Shown here piece after piece: positions 1-5,283 of a stretch of 5,283 bases of DNA. Within the stretch, counting starts at the first letter, position 1. Every line of letters starts with the position of its first letter. The DNA is from a virus (Duplodnaviria > Heunggongvirae > Uroviricota > Caudoviricetes), in IMG/VR virus record IMGVR_UViG_2675903509_000008; one strand, given 5' to 3'. The translations under genes were made by a program, and so were the position numbers. Under the pieces are notes generated by a model. The model was not told the origin of the DNA, ran no database searches, and saw only the letters and a program-made list of their open reading frames with translations.

Positions 1-1
1 C

Positions 2-112
2 GTGTTACTGGTCGCCCTGCTGATCATGCTGACGAAATTCCCGGCATTGCAGAGTGATAATCACAGTGACGCCAAACAAGGATCNNTNTCNGCATCGCNN
101 TNNAAGCACTGA
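2..112 (+). CDS. possible 3' end of an upstream gene (partial, runs off the window start)
   Basis: Frame 2 is open from the window edge to TGA at 110-112, with E. coli-like codons (ctg, atc, acg, aaa, ttc, ccg) and a hydrophobic stretch VLLVALLIML. Ambiguous bases at 85-103 make the frame and end uncertain. Confidence 0.2.
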   Translation: MLLVALLIMLTKFPALQSDNHSDAKQGXXXASXXKH

Positions 113-129
113 AAAAAGCCTCTTCACAT

Positions 130-849
130 GTGGTGGCAGCTCGCCTTGGAATCAGTCGTGAAGAGGCTGTCAACGAGCTGTGGGAACTCAAAAGAAAAGG
201 CGTCGTTGATAAAACTGGTCACACCTGGTTTCTGGCTGGCGAAGGTGAATCCCGGGTAACCGAAGAGCGGCCAGTAAAATCTGAAGCACAGGATATGCTG
301 ACCGGGGAGGTCGAACAAAAAGTTACCGCAGACATGATGATTGAGTTTATCGGTCAGGATGGGGCTAAAACGTGTGAGGAACTGGCGGGTAAGTTCAGTG
401 TCAGTACTCGCAAGGTTGCTTCCACGCTGGCGGTGGTAACCGCAACGGGGCGGCTGGCACGCGTTAATCAGAACGGTAAATTTCGTTACTGCATGCCGGG
501 CGATAATTTACCAGCAGAGCCGAAAGCCGCGCTGGTAACGGAAAGTGATGGTAAGGCCTTTCCTCAGCCAGCAGGTGCTGCGTTACCAGTCCGGGAAGCC
601 GCAACACAGGAAGAAATTAAAACAGAAACTGTGGCGGACATTGTGCAGCCGTTGCCATCGTTTACCGAAACGCAAGCAGATGAGCTGATTTTTCCGTCCC
701 TTCGCAGGGCAAACCTGGCGCTGCGCAGGGCGAAAAGTGATGTTCAGAAGTGGGAGCGAGTCAGCGCCGCGCTGCGGGAGCTGAACAAGCACCGGGATAT
801 TGTTCGACAGATTACTGATTCTTCCCGCCGTGTTGTATCGGAAAAGTGA
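130..849 (+). CDS. phage winged-helix DNA-binding protein (DUF1627-like, assigned from memory); true start probably upstream in the N-masked stretch
   Basis: 239-codon ORF ending TGA 847-849. The N-terminal ARLGISREEAVNELWELKRKGVV-DKTGHTWFLA looks like the recognition helix and wing of a wHTH. The same frame stays open upstream through the Ns (ALKKASSHVV...), and GTG 130 has no Shine-Dalgarno sequence. Confidence 0.75.
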   Translation: MVAARLGISREEAVNELWELKRKGVVDKTGHTWFLAGEGESRVTEERPVKSEAQDMLTGEVEQKVTADMMIEFIGQDGAKTCEELAGKFSVSTRKVASTLAVVTATGRLARVNQNGKFRYCMPGDNLPAEPKAALVTESDGKAFPQPAGAALPVREAATQEEIKTETVADIVQPLPSFTETQADELIFPSLRRANLALRRAKSDVQKWERVSAALRELNKHRDIVRQITDSSRRVVSEK

Positions 850-864
850 TTGCCGGAGGCGCTT

Positions 865-1257
865 ATGGCAAAAGTATTTACACCAGAAGAGCGGGAAGAA
901 GTGAAGGCGCGCATTGTGGAATTCGTGCGCCTGAGCGGACGAGAAACTTTTCGACAACTGGCAGATAAAACGGGTGTCAGTAAGACCGCTATTCGTCGTT
1001 TATCTGGTGCGCTTGCGGCCAGTGGTGATGTCTGGCTCTCTGGTTGCGGGGTATTTCCATCAGAGCAGGCGTATCGCGTATGGCGTAAGACACCGGAGAA
1101 GGCTGCTGACCCGACACTGATTCGAAAGTTACCTGACGGAGAAATACGTCGTTACAACAGACGGCAGAACATAATTTGTCGTGAGTGCCGCCAGAGCGAA
1201 GTTATGCAGCGTGTGCTGGCGTTCTATCGGGGAAACTTTCAGGAGGTGATGGAGTGA
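865..1257 (+). CDS. phage HTH-type putative regulator with a C-terminal CxxC
   Basis: ATG 865 preceded by GGAGG 855-859 at 5-nt spacing; the track's TTG 850 start is less likely. Helix-turn-helix-like segment FRQLADKTGVSKTAIRRL; C-terminal CRECRQ. Stop TGA 1255-1257 overlaps the next start. Confidence 0.8.
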   Translation: MAKVFTPEEREEVKARIVEFVRLSGRETFRQLADKTGVSKTAIRRLSGALAASGDVWLSGCGVFPSEQAYRVWRKTPEKAADPTLIRKLPDGEIRRYNRRQNIICRECRQSEVMQRVLAFYRGNFQEVME

Positions 1258-1550
1258 GGGTCAGAGTTTATATTGCCGGTCCAATGACGGGATATGAAAA
1301 TTTCAACCGTGAGGCGTTTCACAAGGCGGAAGAGGAACTGAAACGGGAAGGGCATACCGTCTTAAACCCGGCAGTACTTCCGGACGGGCTGACACAGCCG
1401 CACTACATGGATATTTGCATGGCAATGATTCGTTGTGTGGATGCGATTTACATGCTGAATGGCTGGCAGCGGTCAGCGGGCGCTAAGGCAGAGCTGGCAC
1501 TGGCGGAGAAACTGGGGCATGCAGTGATTTATCAGGAGGTGGCTCAATGA
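1254..1550 (+). CDS. DUF4406 family protein (nucleoside 2-deoxyribosyltransferase-like fold)
   Basis: GTG 1254 with AGGAGG 1241-1246 at 7-nt spacing, GTGA overlap with the upstream stop. 98 aa. N-terminal VYIAGPMTG glycine loop and C-terminal GWQRSAGAKAELALAEKLGHAVI match the DUF4406/NDT-like pattern as I recall it. The track start at 1185 would run through the upstream gene. Confidence 0.85.
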   Translation: MRVRVYIAGPMTGYENFNREAFHKAEEELKREGHTVLNPAVLPDGLTQPHYMDICMAMIRCVDAIYMLNGWQRSAGAKAELALAEKLGHAVIYQEVAQ

Positions 1551-2011
1551 GAGAGGTTAACTATGAGGCGCTTCGTGAGGCAGCACAAAACTATCAGTCG
1601 ACGCTGGCGTGGTATCAGGCTATCCCGGACAGCCCAAATGCTGAACAACGGGATTGTGATGCGGCTCTTGCTGCGTTTAAGCGTCACATCCGTCATCGGG
1701 AAGCGGATATTATCGCTGATTTGCTGGATGGACTGGAAGAAGCAAAATCACAACTCAAAGAGCAGCGTGAGTATTACGAAGGCGTTATCTCTGATGGGAG
1801 CAAGCGTATTGCTGAACTGGAAGCGCGGGAAGTTCAATTACCGACTCGCTACGACCTTCGATATGGACACCCGATAAATGCAGATGAGCGACATGTCATG
1901 ATACCTAAAGAAAATGGCAGTTGGCTTTACCTGATTGACCTAGAACACGCATTACGCGTCTCTGGCATTCGCATCAAAGGAGAGGAGCATGGAAATAAAA
2001 CCAGAGGATGA
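1547..2011 (+). CDS. phage hypothetical protein (predicted helical/coiled-coil N-terminal half)
   Basis: ATG 1547 overlaps the upstream stop (ATGA); AGGAGG 1534-1539 at 7-nt spacing. 154 aa, no internal stops, E. coli-like codon usage. Confidence 0.8.
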   Translation: MREVNYEALREAAQNYQSTLAWYQAIPDSPNAEQRDCDAALAAFKRHIRHREADIIADLLDGLEEAKSQLKEQREYYEGVISDGSKRIAELEAREVQLPTRYDLRYGHPINADERHVMIPKENGSWLYLIDLEHALRVSGIRIKGEEHGNKTRG

Positions 2012-2345
2012 GTTAAGCAATATCGTTTTATTTCCGGTAAAAGAGGATGACCCTCGTAATCAGGTTAATTTTCTTTATGAGCCATCGGAAAGACCATATT
2101 GTCATCACGCCTCTGTCCGGGTTGACGAAAAAGAGCGTCAGGTCCGCTGTAAAATCTGCGGTGCAGTTGTGGAGCCATTTGACTGGATGCTCTCTGTGGC
2201 GAAAAGAGAAACCAGACTGGCAGATGATGTAAGGCACTTGCGCCAGGAGGAGCGGGAAAGGCGAAAAAATATAGAAAAGCTAATTCAGATTGAGCGTAAC
2301 GCGAAAGCGCGGATACGCAGGGCGACAAAATCCAGAACTGAATAA
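1989..2345 (+). CDS. phage hypothetical protein with a CHH...CxxC putative zinc-ribbon and a basic C-terminal helix
   Basis: ATG 1989 preceded by AAAGGAGAGGAG 1976-1987; overlaps the upstream ORF by 23 nt. Motif YCHHASVRVDEKERQVRCKICG; Arg/Lys/Glu-rich tail. Confidence 0.75.
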   Translation: MEIKPEDELSNIVLFPVKEDDPRNQVNFLYEPSERPYCHHASVRVDEKERQVRCKICGAVVEPFDWMLSVAKRETRLADDVRHLRQEERERRKNIEKLIQIERNAKARIRRATKSRTE

Positions 2346-2409
2346 TTAAATTTAGCTCTGTTAAAAATTTAATCCTTAACCGGAGGGATTTCTGCACCCT
2401 CAGAACATC

Positions 2410-2438
2410 AGGAGGCCGCCCGAAAGGGCGGTAGTTAA
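2410..2438 (+). promoter_or_regulatory. hairpin-split ribosome binding site (SD - GAAA-tetraloop hairpin - start codon)
   Basis: AGGAGG 2410-2415, then perfect 6-bp stem CCGCCC (2416-2421) / GGGCGG (2426-2431) around a GAAA loop, then 7 nt to ATG 2439. The linear SD-to-ATG distance is 23 nt; it becomes 7 nt if the hairpin forms. Confidence 0.4.
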
Positions 2439-2621
2439 ATGCGAAAGTTTAAAATAATTATTGAAACGGGAATAGCCGGTGGAGATTTCGAGGATGAATT
2501 CGAAGTGGATGATGATGCGACGCCTGATGAAATACATGACGAAGCAAAAGATATTTTCTTTAACTACTGCAATTACTCATATCACGAAATAAAAGACGAA
2601 GAGGAAGAGCAAAATGGCTGA
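2439..2621 (+). CDS. small, strongly acidic hypothetical protein (60 aa)
   Basis: ORF MRKFKIIIETGIAGGDFEDEFEVDDDATPDEIHDEAKDIFFNYCNYSYHEIKDEEEEQNG with 19 Asp/Glu against 5 Lys/Arg. Stop TGA 2619-2621 overlaps the next start. Confidence 0.7.
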   Translation: MRKFKIIIETGIAGGDFEDEFEVDDDATPDEIHDEAKDIFFNYCNYSYHEIKDEEEEQNG

Positions 2622-2790
2622 TTTTGGTTCAACTAAATACAACGTCAGTTTTGAAGCATGGCATGAACTGTTAATGGACTATGCAGAGTTACGTGGTGGC
2701 AGTGCTGCTGATGCTGAAGCATGGCGTGATGATTATGAAGCAGGAAAAACTCCGGTCGAAGCATATTGTGATGAGTGGGGCGATGAATGA
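2614..2790 (+). CDS. small acidic hypothetical protein (58 aa), absent from the supplied ORF track
   Basis: ATG 2614 with GAGGAAGAG 2601-2609 upstream. Translates without stops to MADFGSTKYNVSFEAWHELLMDYAELRGGSAADAEAWRDDYEAGKTPVEAYCDEWGDE. It exactly fills the gap between neighbours, with stop/start overlaps at both ends (ATGA at 2787-2790). Confidence 0.6.
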   Translation: MADFGSTKYNVSFEAWHELLMDYAELRGGSAADAEAWRDDYEAGKTPVEAYCDEWGDE

Positions 2791-3302
2791 GCGAGATTAA
2801 TTATCAGGAAGGGCATGAAACGGCAGGGCAGGCAAAAACAGTGGCATGGCGATATCGCTACGTGAAAAAAGACGTTACAGACTTTCAGGGGAAGCCGTGG
2901 GCTGGTGACTGGAAATATGTACCGACAAAAGAGGATTGTAACGACAGGCCGAACTATGAAATTCAGGCCTTATTCATCGGCCCGCCAGTCCCGGTGACAT
3001 CAGAAGGACTGGTTAAAGCCGTGCGCTTTTATGAACAGGTAAAGCGTGAGAATCCGCCAGTCGAAACAGGAGCATGGAAGGATGCTGTTGACCGGGTGCT
3101 CAGAGAGGCCTGCTGCGCTGCCATTCTGGGTAAAGCCGACAATCCACCAGCATCCGGCAATCAGGTTAGCGAATTAACAATGTGGGTTAAACGACTGGTC
3201 AGTCAACTGAAAAAAGCTCAGCCGGACTGCAAATTACCGGAGAAGGCGATGGATTACCTGAAACGAAATGGACTGATAAGCGTGGAGGATGTTTTACGAT
3301 GA
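2787..3302 (+). CDS. phage hypothetical protein (171 aa)
   Basis: ATG 2787 overlapping the upstream stop; long stop-free frame with E. coli-like codon usage; stop TGA 3300-3302. Confidence 0.8.
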   Translation: MSEINYQEGHETAGQAKTVAWRYRYVKKDVTDFQGKPWAGDWKYVPTKEDCNDRPNYEIQALFIGPPVPVTSEGLVKAVRFYEQVKRENPPVETGAWKDAVDRVLREACCAAILGKADNPPASGNQVSELTMWVKRLVSQLKKAQPDCKLPEKAMDYLKRNGLISVEDVLR

Positions 3303-3422
3303 ATATTTAGACTAAAGAGTTTGTAACGCTATGTAAGTGATTTTTTCTGGTTTAGATATTTATATGTCCGGCCAAATTGAGGTGTGTTTAAATGTTATTG
3401 CACATTGATTGTAGGGGGAATA

Positions 3423-3602
3423 ATGAAAAACGCATTGCAGTTTTTGTTTGTTGCGTTCTGGTTGTTCGCATCATGTATGCCCATCATCTTCACAGCAAGG
3501 TATATGGAAAAAATTGATGTTTTGATATTAATGTTTGGACATATAAATGCCCTTTTTTTAGGGGTGTTCATGGCGGTCATGTGCATTGAATACTGGCGGT
3601 AA
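3423..3602 (+). CDS. small hydrophobic membrane protein, two predicted transmembrane helices (59 aa), in an AT-rich insert
   Basis: ATG 3423 preceded by AGGGGG 3413-3418; the track's GTG 3384 start lacks an SD. Two hydrophobic stretches (ALQFLFVAFWLFASCMPIIF and IDVLILMFGHINALFLGVFMAVMCI). Rare codons (tta, ttg, ata, agg) and visibly lower G+C than the flanks. Confidence 0.55.
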   Translation: MKNALQFLFVAFWLFASCMPIIFTARYMEKIDVLILMFGHINALFLGVFMAVMCIEYWR

Positions 3603-3657
3603 ATACAGCGAACGCCATTGGTTTAGTTGGATATTTACTGTGCCGGACAAAAACGGT

Positions 3658-3685
3658 TTGCGGGGAAATCTTAGTTAAGTAGAAT
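3658..3685 (+). promoter_or_regulatory. candidate sigma70 promoter for the hok transcript
   Basis: -35 TTGCGG 3658-3663, 16-bp spacer, -10 TAGAAT 3680-3685. The predicted start near 3692 would give a transcript of roughly 420 nt to the terminator, similar to known hok mRNAs. Confidence 0.35.
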
Positions 3686-3744
3686 AACTGCGGGTGCTTG
3701 AGGCTATCTGTCTCAGGCATGAACACCAAAAGGCAGATAGAGAA

Positions 3745-3812
3745 AAGCCCCAGTTAACATTACGCGTCCTGCAAGACGCTTAACATTAATCTGAGGCCAT
3801 ATCTATGCGACA
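3745..3812 (-). ncRNA. candidate Sok-like antisense RNA against the mok/hok leader
   Basis: On the minus strand: -35 TTGACC (complement of + 3842-3847), 18-bp spacer, -10 TAATCT (complement of + 3818-3823). A transcript starting near 3811 would be antisense to the mok-like start codon (3805) and its GAGG (3793-3796). The 3' end is not defined; a GCGTC/GACGC hairpin (+ 3764-3779) lacks a U-tract. Confidence 0.3.
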
Positions 3813-3864
3813 CATAGAGATTAGCCTCTTACGGACCGAAAGGTCAAGGAGAAGCAGGCTATGA
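3805..3864 (+). CDS. mok-like leader ORF (19 codons), translationally coupled to hok
   Basis: ATG 3805 with GAGG 3793-3796 at 8-nt spacing; translates MRHIEISLLRTERSRRSRL; its TGA 3862-3864 overlaps the hok ATG 3861-3863 (ATGA). Confidence 0.4.
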   Translation: MRHIEISLLRTERSRRSRL

Positions 3865-4016
3865 AGCAGCAAAAGGCGATGTTAATCGCCCTGATCGTCA
3901 TCTGTTTAACCGTCATAGTGACGGCACTGGTAACGAGGAAAGACCTCTGCGAGGTACGAATCCGAACCGGCCAGACGGAGGTCGCTGTCTTCACAGCTTA
4001 CGAACCTGAGGAGTAA
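3861..4016 (+). CDS. hokD: Hok-family type I toxin (HokD/RelF-like, 51 aa)
   Basis: AAGGAG 3846-3851 at 9-nt spacing to ATG 3861. Translation MKQQKAMLIALIVICLTVIVTALVTRKDLCEVRIRTGQTEVAVFTAYEPEE matches the Hok family signature and, from memory, HokD/RelF over its full length. Confidence 0.9.
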   Translation: MKQQKAMLIALIVICLTVIVTALVTRKDLCEVRIRTGQTEVAVFTAYEPEE

Positions 4017-4084
4017 GAGACCCGGCGAGGGAGAAATCCCTCGCCACCTCTGATGTGGCAGGCATTCTCAACGCACCCGCACTT

Positions 4085-4115
4085 AACCCGCTTCGGCGGG
4101 TTTTTGTTTTTATTT
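4085..4115 (+). terminator. rho-independent terminator of the hok transcript
   Basis: Stem AACCCGC (4085-4091) / GCGGGTT (4096-4102) around a TTCG loop, followed by TTTGTTTTTATTTT. Confidence 0.7.
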
Positions 4116-4124
4116 TCAACGCAT

Positions 4125-4154
4125 TTGAAGTTCTGGACGGTGCCGGAATAGAAT
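4125..4154 (+). promoter_or_regulatory. candidate sigma70 promoter for the rem-like gene
   Basis: -35 TTGAAG 4125-4130, 18-bp spacer, -10 TAGAAT 4149-4154, about 80 nt upstream of ATG 4233. Confidence 0.3.
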
Positions 4155-4232
4155 CAAAAATACTTAAGTAGCGCGCAGGGATAAGAGGGATGGTCCCTTA
4201 AAGGGGAGAGCTAATTATCCGGAAGGATTCTG

Positions 4233-4484
4233 ATGATGAACATCGAAGAACTGCGTAAAATTTTTTGTGAAGATGGCCTCTATGCTGTGTGCGTTGAAAA
4301 TGGAAATATTGTTAGTCATTACCGCATTGTGTGTTTGCAAAAAAATGGGGCTGCGTTAATTAATTTTGTGGATGCCCGAGTGACGGACGGATTTATCTTG
4401 CGCGACGGTGAGTTTGTCACTTCATTACAGGTATTGAAAGAGATCGGAATAAAAGCTGGCTTTTCTGCTTTTTCAGAAGAATAA
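4233..4484 (+). CDS. rem: Rem-like small protein (83 aa)
   Basis: ATGATG start at 4233 with GGAAGGA 4221-4227. 83 aa (MMNIEELRKIFCEDGLYAVCVENGN...), the same length as K-12 Rem, and immediately downstream of a hokD-type gene as in the Qin prophage. Identity is from memory and synteny, not a search. Confidence 0.75.
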   Translation: MMNIEELRKIFCEDGLYAVCVENGNIVSHYRIVCLQKNGAALINFVDARVTDGFILRDGEFVTSLQVLKEIGIKAGFSAFSEE

Positions 4485-4550
4485 ACTCATCTACAATCTT
4501 GCGCGGGGCTGAACTCCCGCTGAGTAACACCGTGCCACCGGAGAAAACCG

Positions 4551-4829
4551 ATGGCACGCAACGCAAAATATTACAAACATGATAATTCGACCGTTCTTGC
4601 CCACACGCACGAGCGGTATTCTCACGCATTTAAGTCAGACTGGTACCAGCATCCCCCATGCACTGAAGAACAGGCCGAATGGCTCATTCAGTGTTACCGC
4701 AGGCGCGGATGCGAGGTTAAAAAAGCCCTTAGCCTCGACTACCGTCACTGGATAATCTCCGTCAGGCTTCCTTACTCCGAACGCCCACCGCGTCTGTCCC
4801 GCACATTCCAGCAACGCATCTGGAGGTAA
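4551..4829 (+). CDS. hypothetical basic protein (92 aa); may be a separate small gene or the frameshifted 5' part of the downstream DUF968 gene
   Basis: ATG 4551 with GGAG 4540-4543 at 7-nt spacing. Arg/His/Tyr/Trp-rich ORF ending TAA 4827-4829, inside the RBS of the next ORF. Both frames are open across 4756-4829. Confidence 0.5.
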   Translation: MARNAKYYKHDNSTVLAHTHERYSHAFKSDWYQHPPCTEEQAEWLIQCYRRRGCEVKKALSLDYRHWIISVRLPYSERPPRLSRTFQQRIWR

Positions 4830-4830
4830 C

Positions 4831-5283
4831 GTGCGGGTATTACTTCGACCTGTTCTGGTACCGGAACTCGGGCTGGTGATCGTTAAGCCGGGCCGTGAAT
4901 CCATGCCGGTATTCCACAATACCCGGGTACTGGTGGAGCCGGAACCGAAAAGCATGCGTAATCTGCCGTCCGGGGTCGTTCCTGCCGCTCGCCAGCCGCT
5001 GGTGGAAGACAAAACATTGCTGCCGTTTTTCAGTAACGCACGGGTGATTCGTGCTGCTGGTGGTGCTGGTGCATTGTCTGACTGGTTACTGCGCCATGTT
5101 AAATCCTGCCAGTGGCCACACGGCGATTATCACCACAGTGAAACCGTCATTCACCGTTATGGTACCGGCGCAATGGTGTTGTGCTGGCACTGCGACAACC
5201 AGCTGCGTGACCAGACATCCGAATCACTCGGGCAACTTGCTCATCAAAACCTGTCAGCATGGATGATTGACGTCATCGGTCAC
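4831..5283 (+). CDS. DUF968-family protein, YdfU-like (5' portion; continues beyond the window end)
   Basis: GTG 4831 with GGAGG 4822-4826 at 4-nt spacing. 151 stop-free codons to the window edge (MRVLLRPVLVPELGLVIVKPG...CQWPHGDYHH...CWHCDNQ). Position downstream of hok and rem matches the Qin order as I recall it. The track ORFs 5051-5266 (+) and 4635-5012 (-) are out-of-frame shadows of this frame. Confidence 0.75.
   Translation, partial: MRVLLRPVLVPELGLVIVKPGRESMPVFHNTRVLVEPEPKSMRNLPSGVVPAARQPLVEDKTLLPFFSNARVIRAAGGAGALSDWLLRHVKSCQWPHGDYHHSETVIHRYGTGAMVLCWHCDNQLRDQTSESLGQLAHQNLSAWMIDVIGH

What the first reader, a model, noticed from the sequence alone, without database searches (positions are those of the whole stretch)
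3658..4115. Complete hok-type toxin cassette with its own regulatory region
The 51-aa ORF is an unmistakable Hok toxin. Around it the sequence shows a candidate promoter, a leader ORF coupled to hok, a 9-bp GAAA-tetraloop hairpin just after the stop (GGCGAGGGA 4024-4032 / TCCCTCGCC 4037-4045) and a strong intrinsic terminator. The overall layout resembles plasmid R1 hok/sok as I recall it. As far as I remember the K-12 hokD copy is regarded as a remnant without functional mok/sok, so this copy may be an intact, potentially active version.
Basis: partly seen in the sequence, partly recalled or inferred. Interest (0 to 1): 0.6.

Follow-up and report, generated by a model that had tools for sequence, protein, structure and literature searches.

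The report
Intact prophage hokD/sok toxin-antitoxin locus
This is a complete hok/sok-type RNA-controlled toxin-antitoxin cassette in an E. coli prophage; most E. coli genomes carry this intact form of the hokD locus that K-12 has lost, so it is real but already known.

Summary
Window 3658-4115 holds a 51-aa Hok toxin, identical to HokD (Pfam PF01848, E 1e-23). A full hok mRNA leader precedes it (Rfam RF01794, 107 bits against a cut-off of 59).

- **R1 elements present:** hok promoter, tac, ucb, mok SD and ORF, antisense sok promoter and Sok hairpin, dcb, hok SD, 3' protective hairpin, fbi and terminator.
- **Structure support:** the full-length RNA folds with tac paired to fbi (z = -7.2). Across 14 diverse hok loci the fold keeps 84% of cells paired, against about 41% for slid controls.
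- **K-12 comparison:** homology with K-12 starts only at the hok SD (window 3847); upstream there is relE.
- **Not new:**
  - The intact leader occurs in about 4,100 of 5,426 complete E. coli genomes, including BL21(DE3).
  - The relBE integration is published.
  - The 90%-identical hokW-sokW of phage Sp5 is experimentally validated.
- **Local peculiarity:** a 2-nt deletion makes mok a 19-codon ORF whose stop overlaps the hok start (ATGA).

Activity was not tested here. Verdict: already known, low interest.

The parts
3658..3685 (+). Candidate hok promoter: -35 TTGCGG (3658-3663), 16-nt spacer, -10 TAGAAT (3680-3685)
   Evidence: Coordinates. The -10 is conserved in relatives as TAGAAT, TGGAAT, TAGGAT or TACAAT. 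It aligns with the region just upstream of the R1-type hok mRNA start. It is below the consensus scanner's threshold. Promoter activity is inferred.
3692..4106 (+). Predicted full-length hok (mok-hok) mRNA, about 415 nt
   Evidence: The 5' end is set by the Rfam RF01794 model start and by alignment to the R1-type locus and other hok loci. The 3' end is set by the intrinsic terminator. MFE -167.7 kcal/mol, z = -7.2.
3692..3703 (+). tac (translational activator element), GGGTGCTTGAGG
   Evidence: Pairs 3692-3703 with 4078-4066 in the MFE. The sequence is nearly invariant in 14 loci. Compensatory changes occur in hokB, R1-type and Rahnella (helix 1, 94.6% paired).
3745..3751 (+). ucb / anti-SD (AAGCCCC). 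It pairs with the mok SD in the closed form and with tac in the open form.
   Evidence: Closed-fold pairs are 3747-3753 with 3797-3791. Enforcing tac-ucb costs about 11 kcal/mol with fbi present and 0-1.5 kcal/mol once fbi is removed. The roles are as defined for R1 in PMC9841398.
3743..3811 (-). Predicted Sok antisense RNA, about 69 nt. It has a 13-nt 5' tail, a long hairpin and a U tail. It is complementary to the mok SD and the first 7 nt of mok.
   Evidence: Fold is -29 to -31 kcal/mol, z = -5.0. The start is placed by analogy with annotated K-12 sokC, which begins 9 nt into mokC, and by distance from the -10. sokW is reported as 71 nt complementary (PMC8621323). Transcription is not tested.
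3818..3847 (-). Candidate sok promoter on the minus strand: -35 TTGACC (3847 to 3842), 18-nt spacer, -10 TAATCT (3823 to 3818)
   Evidence: Coordinates. It lies in the same alignment columns as the corresponding stretch of hokW, whose sokW -10 was shown by mutation to be needed for antitoxin activity (PMC8621323), and of the R1-type locus. It is below the scanner's threshold. In K-12 the relBE junction at 3846/3847 destroys the -35.
3793..3864 (+). mok translation unit: SD GAGG 3793-3796; ORF ATG 3805 to TGA 3862-3864 (19 codons, MRHIEISLLRTERSRRSRL). The stop overlaps the hok ATG (ATGA).
   Evidence: The mok ATG is conserved in the 9 close relatives of alignment A2. Spacing to the hok ATG is 56 nt here. 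It is 57 nt (in frame) or 58 nt in the E. coli-type relatives, and Rahnella also has 56. This exact 81-nt stretch occurs in 784 E. coli records.
3822..3832 (+). dcb block TAGCCTCTTAC. It pairs with the hok SD in the closed fold and with the mok SD in the open fold.
   Evidence: The core GCCTCTT is invariant in 14 loci. Closed-fold pairs are 3849-3855 with 3830-3824. The open-fold pairing GAGGC/GCCUC appears in the constrained folds. PMC9841398 places dcb under the Sok promoter.
3846..4016 (+). hok SD AAGGAG (3846-3851) and hok ORF 3861-4016 (51 aa, identical to HokD WP_000813254.1)
   Evidence: The nucleotide sequence of the ORF is identical to K-12 hokD.
3998..4004 (+). UUACGAA around the Tyr47 codon (TAC 3999-4001), a TadA A-to-I editing motif (Tyr to Cys)
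   Evidence: Sequence. Editing of hokB, and 'a similar phenomenon' in hokC, hokD and hokE, is stated in bioRxiv 10.1101/2025.08.07.668861. Not tested here.
4024..4045 (+). 3' stem-loop (9 bp, GAAA loop). It is the likely 3' end protector of the processed, truncated hok mRNA.
   Evidence: Compensatory changes in relatives: A-U here, G-C in phage Rac442, G-U in K-12 (helix 18). In R1 the last stem-loop of Tr-hok protects against 3'-5' exonucleases (PMC9841398).
4066..4078 (+). fbi (fold-back inhibitory element), TCTCAACGCACCC
   Evidence: Pairs with tac over 12 bp with one bulged C at 4072. Duplex energy is -19.4 kcal/mol. Variation in relatives falls at the bulge or is wobble or compensatory.
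4085..4112 (+). Intrinsic terminator (7-bp stem, TTCG loop, T run)

Best explanation
The region is a structurally intact hok/sok-type (type I) toxin-antitoxin cassette of the hokD lineage. It sits in the early-right region of a lambdoid, Qin/Rac-like E. coli prophage.

Inferred mechanism, by homology with R1 hok/sok and Sp5 hokW-sokW:

1. A weak promoter makes a stable mRNA of about 415 nt.
2. Its 5' end (tac) pairs with the 3' fbi. This locks the RNA closed, with the mok SD paired to ucb and the hok SD and start codon buried.
3. Slow 3' trimming back to the 4024-4045 hairpin removes fbi.
4. tac then pairs with ucb and the mok SD is released.
5. Translation of the 19-codon mok ORF runs through the hok SD and ends on the hok start codon. 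This allows Hok synthesis.
6. The roughly 69-nt antisense Sok RNA comes from a promoter inside the mok/hok-SD region. It pairs with the mok initiation region of the processed mRNA, blocks it and triggers RNase III decay.
7. When Sok supply stops (loss of the element, transcription shut-off, or prophage induction), Hok is made and damages the inner membrane.

Shown here: all sequence elements, their homology, the two alternative folds and covariation. Inferred: transcription, processing, toxicity in this context and biological role.
For: - **Protein and RNA family hits:** Pfam HOK_GEF E 1.2e-23. Rfam RF01794 106.7 bits against 59 over 3692-3863. The same model hits hokB, hokC, hokW, BL21 hokD and an R1-type plasmid locus.
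- **Element-by-element alignment** with R1-type hok, hokB, hokC and hokW.
- **Closed fold:** the MFE of the full-length RNA pairs 3692-3703 with 4066-4078, sequesters the mok SD with ucb and buries the hok SD and AUG; z = -7.2.
- **Switch:** the tac-ucb conformer is 11 kcal/mol worse with fbi present and within 0-1.5 kcal/mol once fbi is trimmed off.
- **Covariation on 14 loci:**
  - 84.4% of cells are paired, against 38-43% for slid controls.
  - 51 pairs show changes on both sides, against 21-27 for slid controls.
  - No shuffle out of 500 reached the observed values.
- **tac/fbi compensation** in hokB, R1-type and Rahnella.
- **Sok:** hairpin plus U tail, z = -5.
- **Experiment on relatives:**
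  - hokW-sokW is 90% identical in DNA. [quoted passage not shown]
  - HokD peptide is listed among toxic controls (bioRxiv 10.1101/2025.08.07.668861).
  - In R1, mok needs translating only up to the hok start (PMC9841398).
Against: - No expression or toxicity data exist for this allele.
- Both promoters fall below a simple sigma-70 consensus threshold.
- The 2-nt deletion gives a 56-nt mok-hok spacing not seen in the other E. coli-type relatives sampled. It also shortens the Sok 5' tail by 2 nt, so coupling or Sok kinetics could differ.
- Chromosomal hokA, hokB and hokC loci were reported unable to mediate post-segregational killing or rifampicin activation (summarised in the bioRxiv paper).
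- For one trimmed length, the unconstrained MFE prefers a local tac hairpin over tac-ucb.
Confidence: 0.87

Rival explanations
1. The cassette is intact in sequence but physiologically silent or attenuated. This would resemble the chromosomal hok loci that failed to show post-segregational killing. Alternatively, the 2-nt deletion that makes mok a 19-codon ORF ending on the hok AUG may weaken the mok-hok coupling or the Sok interaction.
For: Chromosomal hokA, hokB and hokC did not mediate PSK or respond to rifampicin (bioRxiv 10.1101/2025.08.07.668861). The 56-nt spacing is found in none of the other E. coli-type relatives sampled. Both promoters are weak by consensus.
Against: [quoted passage not shown] Here the stop lies 1 nt past the hok A of ATG. 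The exact allele is present in 784 E. coli records. All structural elements are retained. A chromosomal single copy of R1 hok is toxic without Sok.
Confidence: 0.2
2. The main role of the locus is as a prophage lysis helper, as reported for hokW-sokW, rather than prophage maintenance or anti-phage abortive infection. On induction Sok falls, Hok is made, and lysis and phage release are enhanced.
For: hokW-sokW (about 90% DNA identity) hastens growth arrest after mitomycin C and doubles Sp5 release (PMC8621323). The window's locus lies in the early-right region on the same strand as the replication, nin-type and Q genes. Antiterminated read-through on induction could therefore oppose sok transcription (inference).
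Against: hokW sits at a different place in Sp5, near the right end and on the opposite strand of the record. This prophage's inducibility is unknown. Qin-type prophages are often defective (PMC6379469). PSK and phage-exclusion roles are the classical ones for R1 hok/sok.
Confidence: 0.3
3. It is a remnant like K-12 hokD (relF): a hok ORF without its own promoter, mok or sok, expressed only by read-through from upstream genes.
For: The Hok ORF and everything downstream are near-identical to K-12 hokD-rem.
Against: The window has 155 nt of canonical leader (3692-3846) that K-12 lacks. Rfam hits this leader here and not in K-12. No relE lies upstream.
Confidence: 0.01
4. The 3' segment (4025-4106) is an independent IsrK-like Hfq-binding sRNA.
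For: Weak Rfam isrK match, 26.6 bits, E 0.009.
Against: The score is far below the family's gathering score of 50. The segment is the conserved hok 3' UTR (hairpin, fbi, terminator), whose pairing partner is tac.
Confidence: 0.02

Closest known systems
hokW-sokW of Stx2 phage Sp5 / Min27 / 933W-type phages (PMC8621323)
   Same: About 90% DNA identity over 443 nt and 92% Hok identity. It has the same tac, ucb, mok ATG, sok promoter position, 3' hairpin and fbi, and it is prophage-borne. It is an experimentally validated type I TA.
   Different: In hokW, mok is 57 nt upstream and in frame with hok (a 70-aa MokW). The sok promoter is TTGCCT-17-TAACCT, and the sequence after fbi differs, with no matching terminator. 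Its position in the phage genome is also different.
K-12 hokD (relF) in the relBEF operon of prophage Qin
   Same: Identical Hok ORF. Near-identical hok SD, 3' hairpin, fbi, terminator and downstream rem.
   Different: K-12 has relB-relE in place of everything upstream of window 3847. It therefore has no hok promoter, tac, ucb, mok, Sok or sok promoter. The K-12 junction is found in 1,173 of 5,426 genomes, and the intact leader in about 4,100.
hok/sok (parB) of plasmid R1
   Same: Same order of elements and the same predicted closed and open RNA switch. mok has 19 codons before the hok start, and Sok is antisense to the mok initiation region.
   Different: Hok is only about 45% identical. R1 mok is 70 aa and continues through hok. 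The R1 leader has a longer insertion in the tac hairpin and a shorter Sok-target hairpin. R1 is plasmid-borne with demonstrated PSK.
K-12 hokC/mokC/sokC (gef) and hokB/mokB/sokB
   Same: Same Rfam leader family at 110-118 bits. HokC is 82% identical to this Hok. The annotated SokC and SokB positions match the Sok predicted here.
   Different: mokC is in frame (57 nt) and mokB is out of frame (58 nt). K-12 hokC has IS186 just downstream, which separates it from its fbi.

Membership tests
[quoted passage not shown] | Small hydrophobic Hok/Gef-family toxin ORF | tested here: met
   Pfam PF01848 E 1.2e-23, 82.9 bits against a cut-off of 22. PHROG 251 E 2.8e-33. RefSeq names it HokD.
[quoted passage not shown] | Conserved hok mRNA leader (Rfam RF01794 model, sense strand) | tested here: met
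   106.7 bits against a gathering score of 59, full model 1-157, window 3692-3863. Positive controls hokB, hokC, hokW and R1-type are hit. K-12 hokD is not hit.
[quoted passage not shown] | mok leader ORF with its own SD, translated across the hok SD and start | tested here: met
   GAGG 3793-3796, ATG 3805, 19 codons, TGA overlapping the hok ATG. The ATG is conserved in the close relatives. This is a variant: it stops at the hok start instead of running through hok. The R1 rule that translation up to the hok start suffices comes from PMC9841398.
[quoted passage not shown] | Antisense Sok RNA gene complementary to the mok initiation region, with its own promoter | tested here: inconclusive
   Minus-strand TTGACC-18-TAATCT, a stable hairpin and a U tail (z = -5) sit at the position homologous to annotated sokC and sokB and to validated sokW (PMC8621323). 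The promoter is below the scanner's threshold. Transcription is not testable here.
[quoted passage not shown] | 5'-3' end pairing (tac/fbi) that locks the full-length mRNA | tested here: met
   12 bp, 3692-3703 with 4066-4078, in the MFE. 94.6% paired across 14 loci, with compensatory changes.
[quoted passage not shown] | Alternative tac/ucb pairing that releases the mok SD after 3' processing | tested here: met
   In silico only. ucb pairs with the mok SD in the closed fold. tac-ucb costs about 11 kcal/mol with fbi present and 0-1.5 kcal/mol without it. The leader alone folds into tac-ucb.
[quoted passage not shown] | 3' processing to a truncated, translatable mRNA ending at a protective stem-loop | not testable with these tools
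   The stem-loop 4024-4045 is present and covaries (helix 18). Processing itself needs RNA mapping.
[quoted passage not shown] | Hok toxicity neutralised by Sok; activation when Sok decays | not testable with these tools
   Evidence comes from relatives only. HokD peptide is toxic (bioRxiv 10.1101/2025.08.07.668861). hokW-sokW is validated (PMC8621323).
K-12-type relBE-hokD (relBEF) arrangement | relE immediately upstream of the hok SD, with no hok leader | tested here: not met
   The window has a canonical leader. The K-12 junction sequence is absent and homology to K-12 starts at 3847.

The most novel reading that the evidence does not exclude
The 2-nt deletion allele (56-nt spacing) turns mok into a minimal 19-codon leader that terminates exactly on the hok start codon (AUGA). 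It also trims the Sok 5' tail by 2 nt. It would be a natural, widespread (784 records) 'minimal mok'. It would show that termination-reinitiation alone can couple mok to hok, possibly with altered Hok output or Sok kinetics. In addition, the cassette lies on the sense strand of the prophage early-right operon. Antiterminated read-through on induction could therefore silence sok by transcriptional interference and tie Hok release to the lytic switch.
Probability: 0.3. Interest if true: 0.35.

Novelty: already known. Interest (0 to 1): 0.15.

Why it matters
Its value is in annotation and interpretation.

- RefSeq labels only the 51-aa ORF as 'HokD' and annotates nothing over the leader, mok or Sok. 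Readers used to K-12 may therefore assume a remnant.
- In most E. coli, including BL21(DE3), hokD is a complete RNA-regulated toxin cassette. The K-12 relBEF arrangement is the derived state.
- The three mok frames found among close relatives (56, 57 and 58 nt) fit the published view that mok translation matters, not the Mok peptide.
- None of this opens a new question.

Tried and rejected
- **Consensus promoter scan:** it found neither the hok nor the sok promoter. Both are assigned by homology and hand inspection only.
- **14-mer tac scan of species-representative genomes:** most hits were chance matches in unrelated phyla. Only a few Enterobacterales loci were real hok loci.
- **Unconstrained MFE of the 3'-trimmed RNA ending at 4060:** it gave a local tac hairpin rather than tac-ucb. 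This resembles the published metastable structure. Constrained folds were needed to compare the conformers.
- **IsrK-like sRNA reading of the 3' UTR:** rejected as sub-threshold.
- **K-12-like remnant reading:** rejected.
- **Primary papers not held in the library:** I could not obtain Pedersen and Gerdes 1999, Ramisetty and Santhosh 2016, or the Fozo 2008 review. The statement on relBE integration rests on a secondary citation.
- **My recalled R1 sequence:** it was not used as evidence. An R1-type plasmid locus, whose Hok is 100% identical to the R1 Hok sequence I supplied from memory, was used instead. Its mok spacing is 57 nt, whereas R1 proper is 58 nt according to the coordinates in PMC9841398.

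Full report
**Context.** The window is E. coli prophage DNA.
- Positions 134-5276 match a lambdoid, Qin/Rac-like prophage of E. coli 266917_2 at 99.2%.
- Positions 3300-4500 are 100% identical to many E. coli chromosomes, where RefSeq annotates 'hokD' and 'rem'.
- The neighbours are replication and nin-type genes upstream. Downstream lie rem, a DUF968/HNH protein, RusA and an antiterminator Q, all on the same strand.

**Observation.**
- The 51-aa ORF 3861-4016 is a Hok/Gef toxin (Pfam E 1.2e-23; PHROG 'MokW-like host killing' E 2.8e-33). Its nucleotide sequence is identical to K-12 hokD.
- The 9-bp GAAA hairpin lies at 4024-4045, and the terminator at 4085-4102.
- The leader ORF runs from ATG 3805 for 19 codons. 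Its TGA overlaps the hok ATG.
- The candidate promoter TTGCGG-16-TAGAAT (3658-3685) sits just upstream of the predicted RNA start near 3692. It is too weak for the consensus scanner, but its -10 is conserved in relatives.

**What it is.** Rfam RF01794 matches 3692-3863 on the hok sense strand at 106.7 bits (cut-off 59).
- The same model hits hokB, hokC, hokW, BL21 hokD and an R1-type plasmid locus, but not the K-12 hokD locus.
- Although the family is named 'sok', the model represents the hok leader. In K-12 it hits the hokC strand, while sokC is annotated on the opposite strand.
- Alignments with close and distant hok loci identify these elements:

| Element | Window coordinates |
|---|---|
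| tac | 3692-3703 |
| ucb | 3745-3751 |
| mok SD | 3793-3796 |
| mok ATG | 3805 |
| dcb block | 3822-3832 |
| hok SD | 3846-3851 |
| fbi | 4066-4078 |

- On the minus strand there is a promoter-like TTGACC-18-TAATCT (3847 to 3818). It is followed by an RNA of about 69 nt (3811 to 3743) with a long hairpin and a U tail (z = -5).
- That RNA sits where SokC and SokB are annotated in K-12 and where the validated sokW lies (PMC8621323).

**RNA switch.**
- The 417-nt RNA folds (z = -7.2) with tac paired to fbi. In this fold the mok SD pairs with ucb, the hok SD pairs with the dcb block, and the hok start region pairs with the 3' end of the ORF.
- Enforcing tac-ucb costs about 11 kcal/mol while fbi is present. 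It costs only 0-1.5 kcal/mol once the 3' end is trimmed back towards the 4024-4045 hairpin. The open fold also shows mok SD/dcb pairing. This is the closed and open scheme described for R1 (PMC9841398).
- On 14 hok loci the closed structure keeps 84.4% of cells paired, against 38-43% for slid controls. It has 51 pairs with double changes against 21-27, and no shuffle out of 500 reached the observed values.
- tac/fbi shows compensatory changes in hokB, the R1-type locus and Rahnella. The 3' hairpin also covaries. In R1 that hairpin protects the truncated mRNA from exonucleases.

**Comparison with K-12.**
- Homology between the window and K-12 relB-relE-hokD-rem begins at window 3847, the hok SD, and is near-perfect from there on. 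Upstream, K-12 has relE.
- K-12 therefore lacks the hok promoter, tac, ucb, mok, Sok and the sok -35. It keeps an orphan fbi and the 3' hairpin.
It matches the published statement that relBE integrated into an ancestral, longer hokD locus (PMC6379469, citing Ramisetty and Santhosh 2016).

**How common.**

| Feature | Frequency among complete E. coli genomes or records |
|---|---|
| Leader covered at 80% or more | 4,129 of 5,426 genomes |
| Exact 81-nt mok-to-hok-start stretch | 784 records |
| K-12 relE-hokD junction | 1,173 genomes |

- BL21(DE3) carries the same HokD protein with an intact leader and no relBE.
- Related cassettes occur in Stx phages, P1-like phage-plasmids and other prophages. 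Some of these records annotate mok or mokW.
- A recent survey reports hok enrichment in prophages and lists HokD among toxic controls (bioRxiv 10.1101/2025.08.07.668861).

**Local peculiarity.**
- The mok-hok start spacing is 56 nt here because of a 2-nt deletion just after ATGC. As a result mok ends on the hok start codon (ATGA).
- The E. coli-type relatives have 57 nt (in frame: BL21, hokW, hokC, R1-type plasmid) or 58 nt (phage Rac442, P1-like, Pantoea, hokB). R1 proper is 58 nt by the coordinates in PMC9841398. Rahnella also has 56 nt, but there the ORF continues into hok.
- In R1, only translation of mok up to the hok start is required, so this allele should still couple. That remains an inference.

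**Function.** The biological role is inferred from relatives. Candidates are post-segregational stabilisation, phage exclusion, or help with lysis on induction as shown for hokW-sokW. No tool here can test transcription, processing or toxicity.

**Verdict.** The feature is a known kind of system, and this sequence is common in sequenced genomes. Interest is low.

Noticed in passing
window 1-133: Positions 1-84 are an internal fragment of the core gene fucP, 100% identical in more than 5,000 E. coli genomes. They are followed by 28 bases containing Ns (85-112) and then the middle of a prophage DUF1627 gene. This looks like a scaffold or assembly join rather than a real junction.
   Followed up: partly
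window 3301-3660 (ORF 3384/3423-3602, + strand): An AT-rich island (36.7% GC against about 50% in the flanks) lies just upstream of the hok promoter. It holds an unannotated 59-72 aa, strongly hydrophobic ORF (MKNALQFLFVAFWLF...) with no Pfam or PHROG match. It could be a small membrane-protein moron.
   Followed up: partly
window 3998-4004 (Tyr47 codon TAC 3999-4001): UUACGAA around the Tyr47 codon matches the TadA A-to-I editing motif reported for hokB and, similarly, for hokC, hokD and hokE (Tyr to Cys, needed for a disulfide). In the closed fold this stretch pairs with the hok start region (3856-3870 with 3984-3999, 96% paired across 14 loci).
   Followed up: partly
window 3805-3864; L003, L004, L005, L013, L014, L015: Close relatives use all three reading frames for mok relative to hok (56, 57 or 58 nt between the start codons). 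This fits the view that the act of translation matters, not the Mok peptide.
   Followed up: yes
window 4025-4106: A sub-threshold Rfam isrK match (26.6 bits, gathering score 50) falls over the hok 3' hairpin and terminator. It is probably just a shared hairpin-spacer-terminator shape.
   Followed up: no
window 4125-4154: A promoter-like site TTGAAG-18-TAGAAT lies between the hok terminator and rem. It could drive rem independently.
   Followed up: no
window 3692-3863; L014 502-654: Rfam RF01794, named 'sok antitoxin', matches the hok sense strand (leader from tac to the hok AUG) rather than the antisense Sok RNA. A hit's strand should not be read as the Sok strand.
   Followed up: yes
plasmid record NZ_CP069920.1 8242-8717: A 9.5-kb record labelled as a Klebsiella oxytoca plasmid is 100% identical to window 3640-4115. 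It may be a prophage fragment or a mislabelled contig.
   Followed up: no
L014 (K-12 hokC) and L012 (IncY plasmid hokD): In both loci an IS186/IS421-family element lies directly downstream of hok, and their 3' flanks align with each other rather than with the fbi seen in other loci. This looks like a recurrent way of unlocking or disabling the 5'-3' end pairing.
   Followed up: partly
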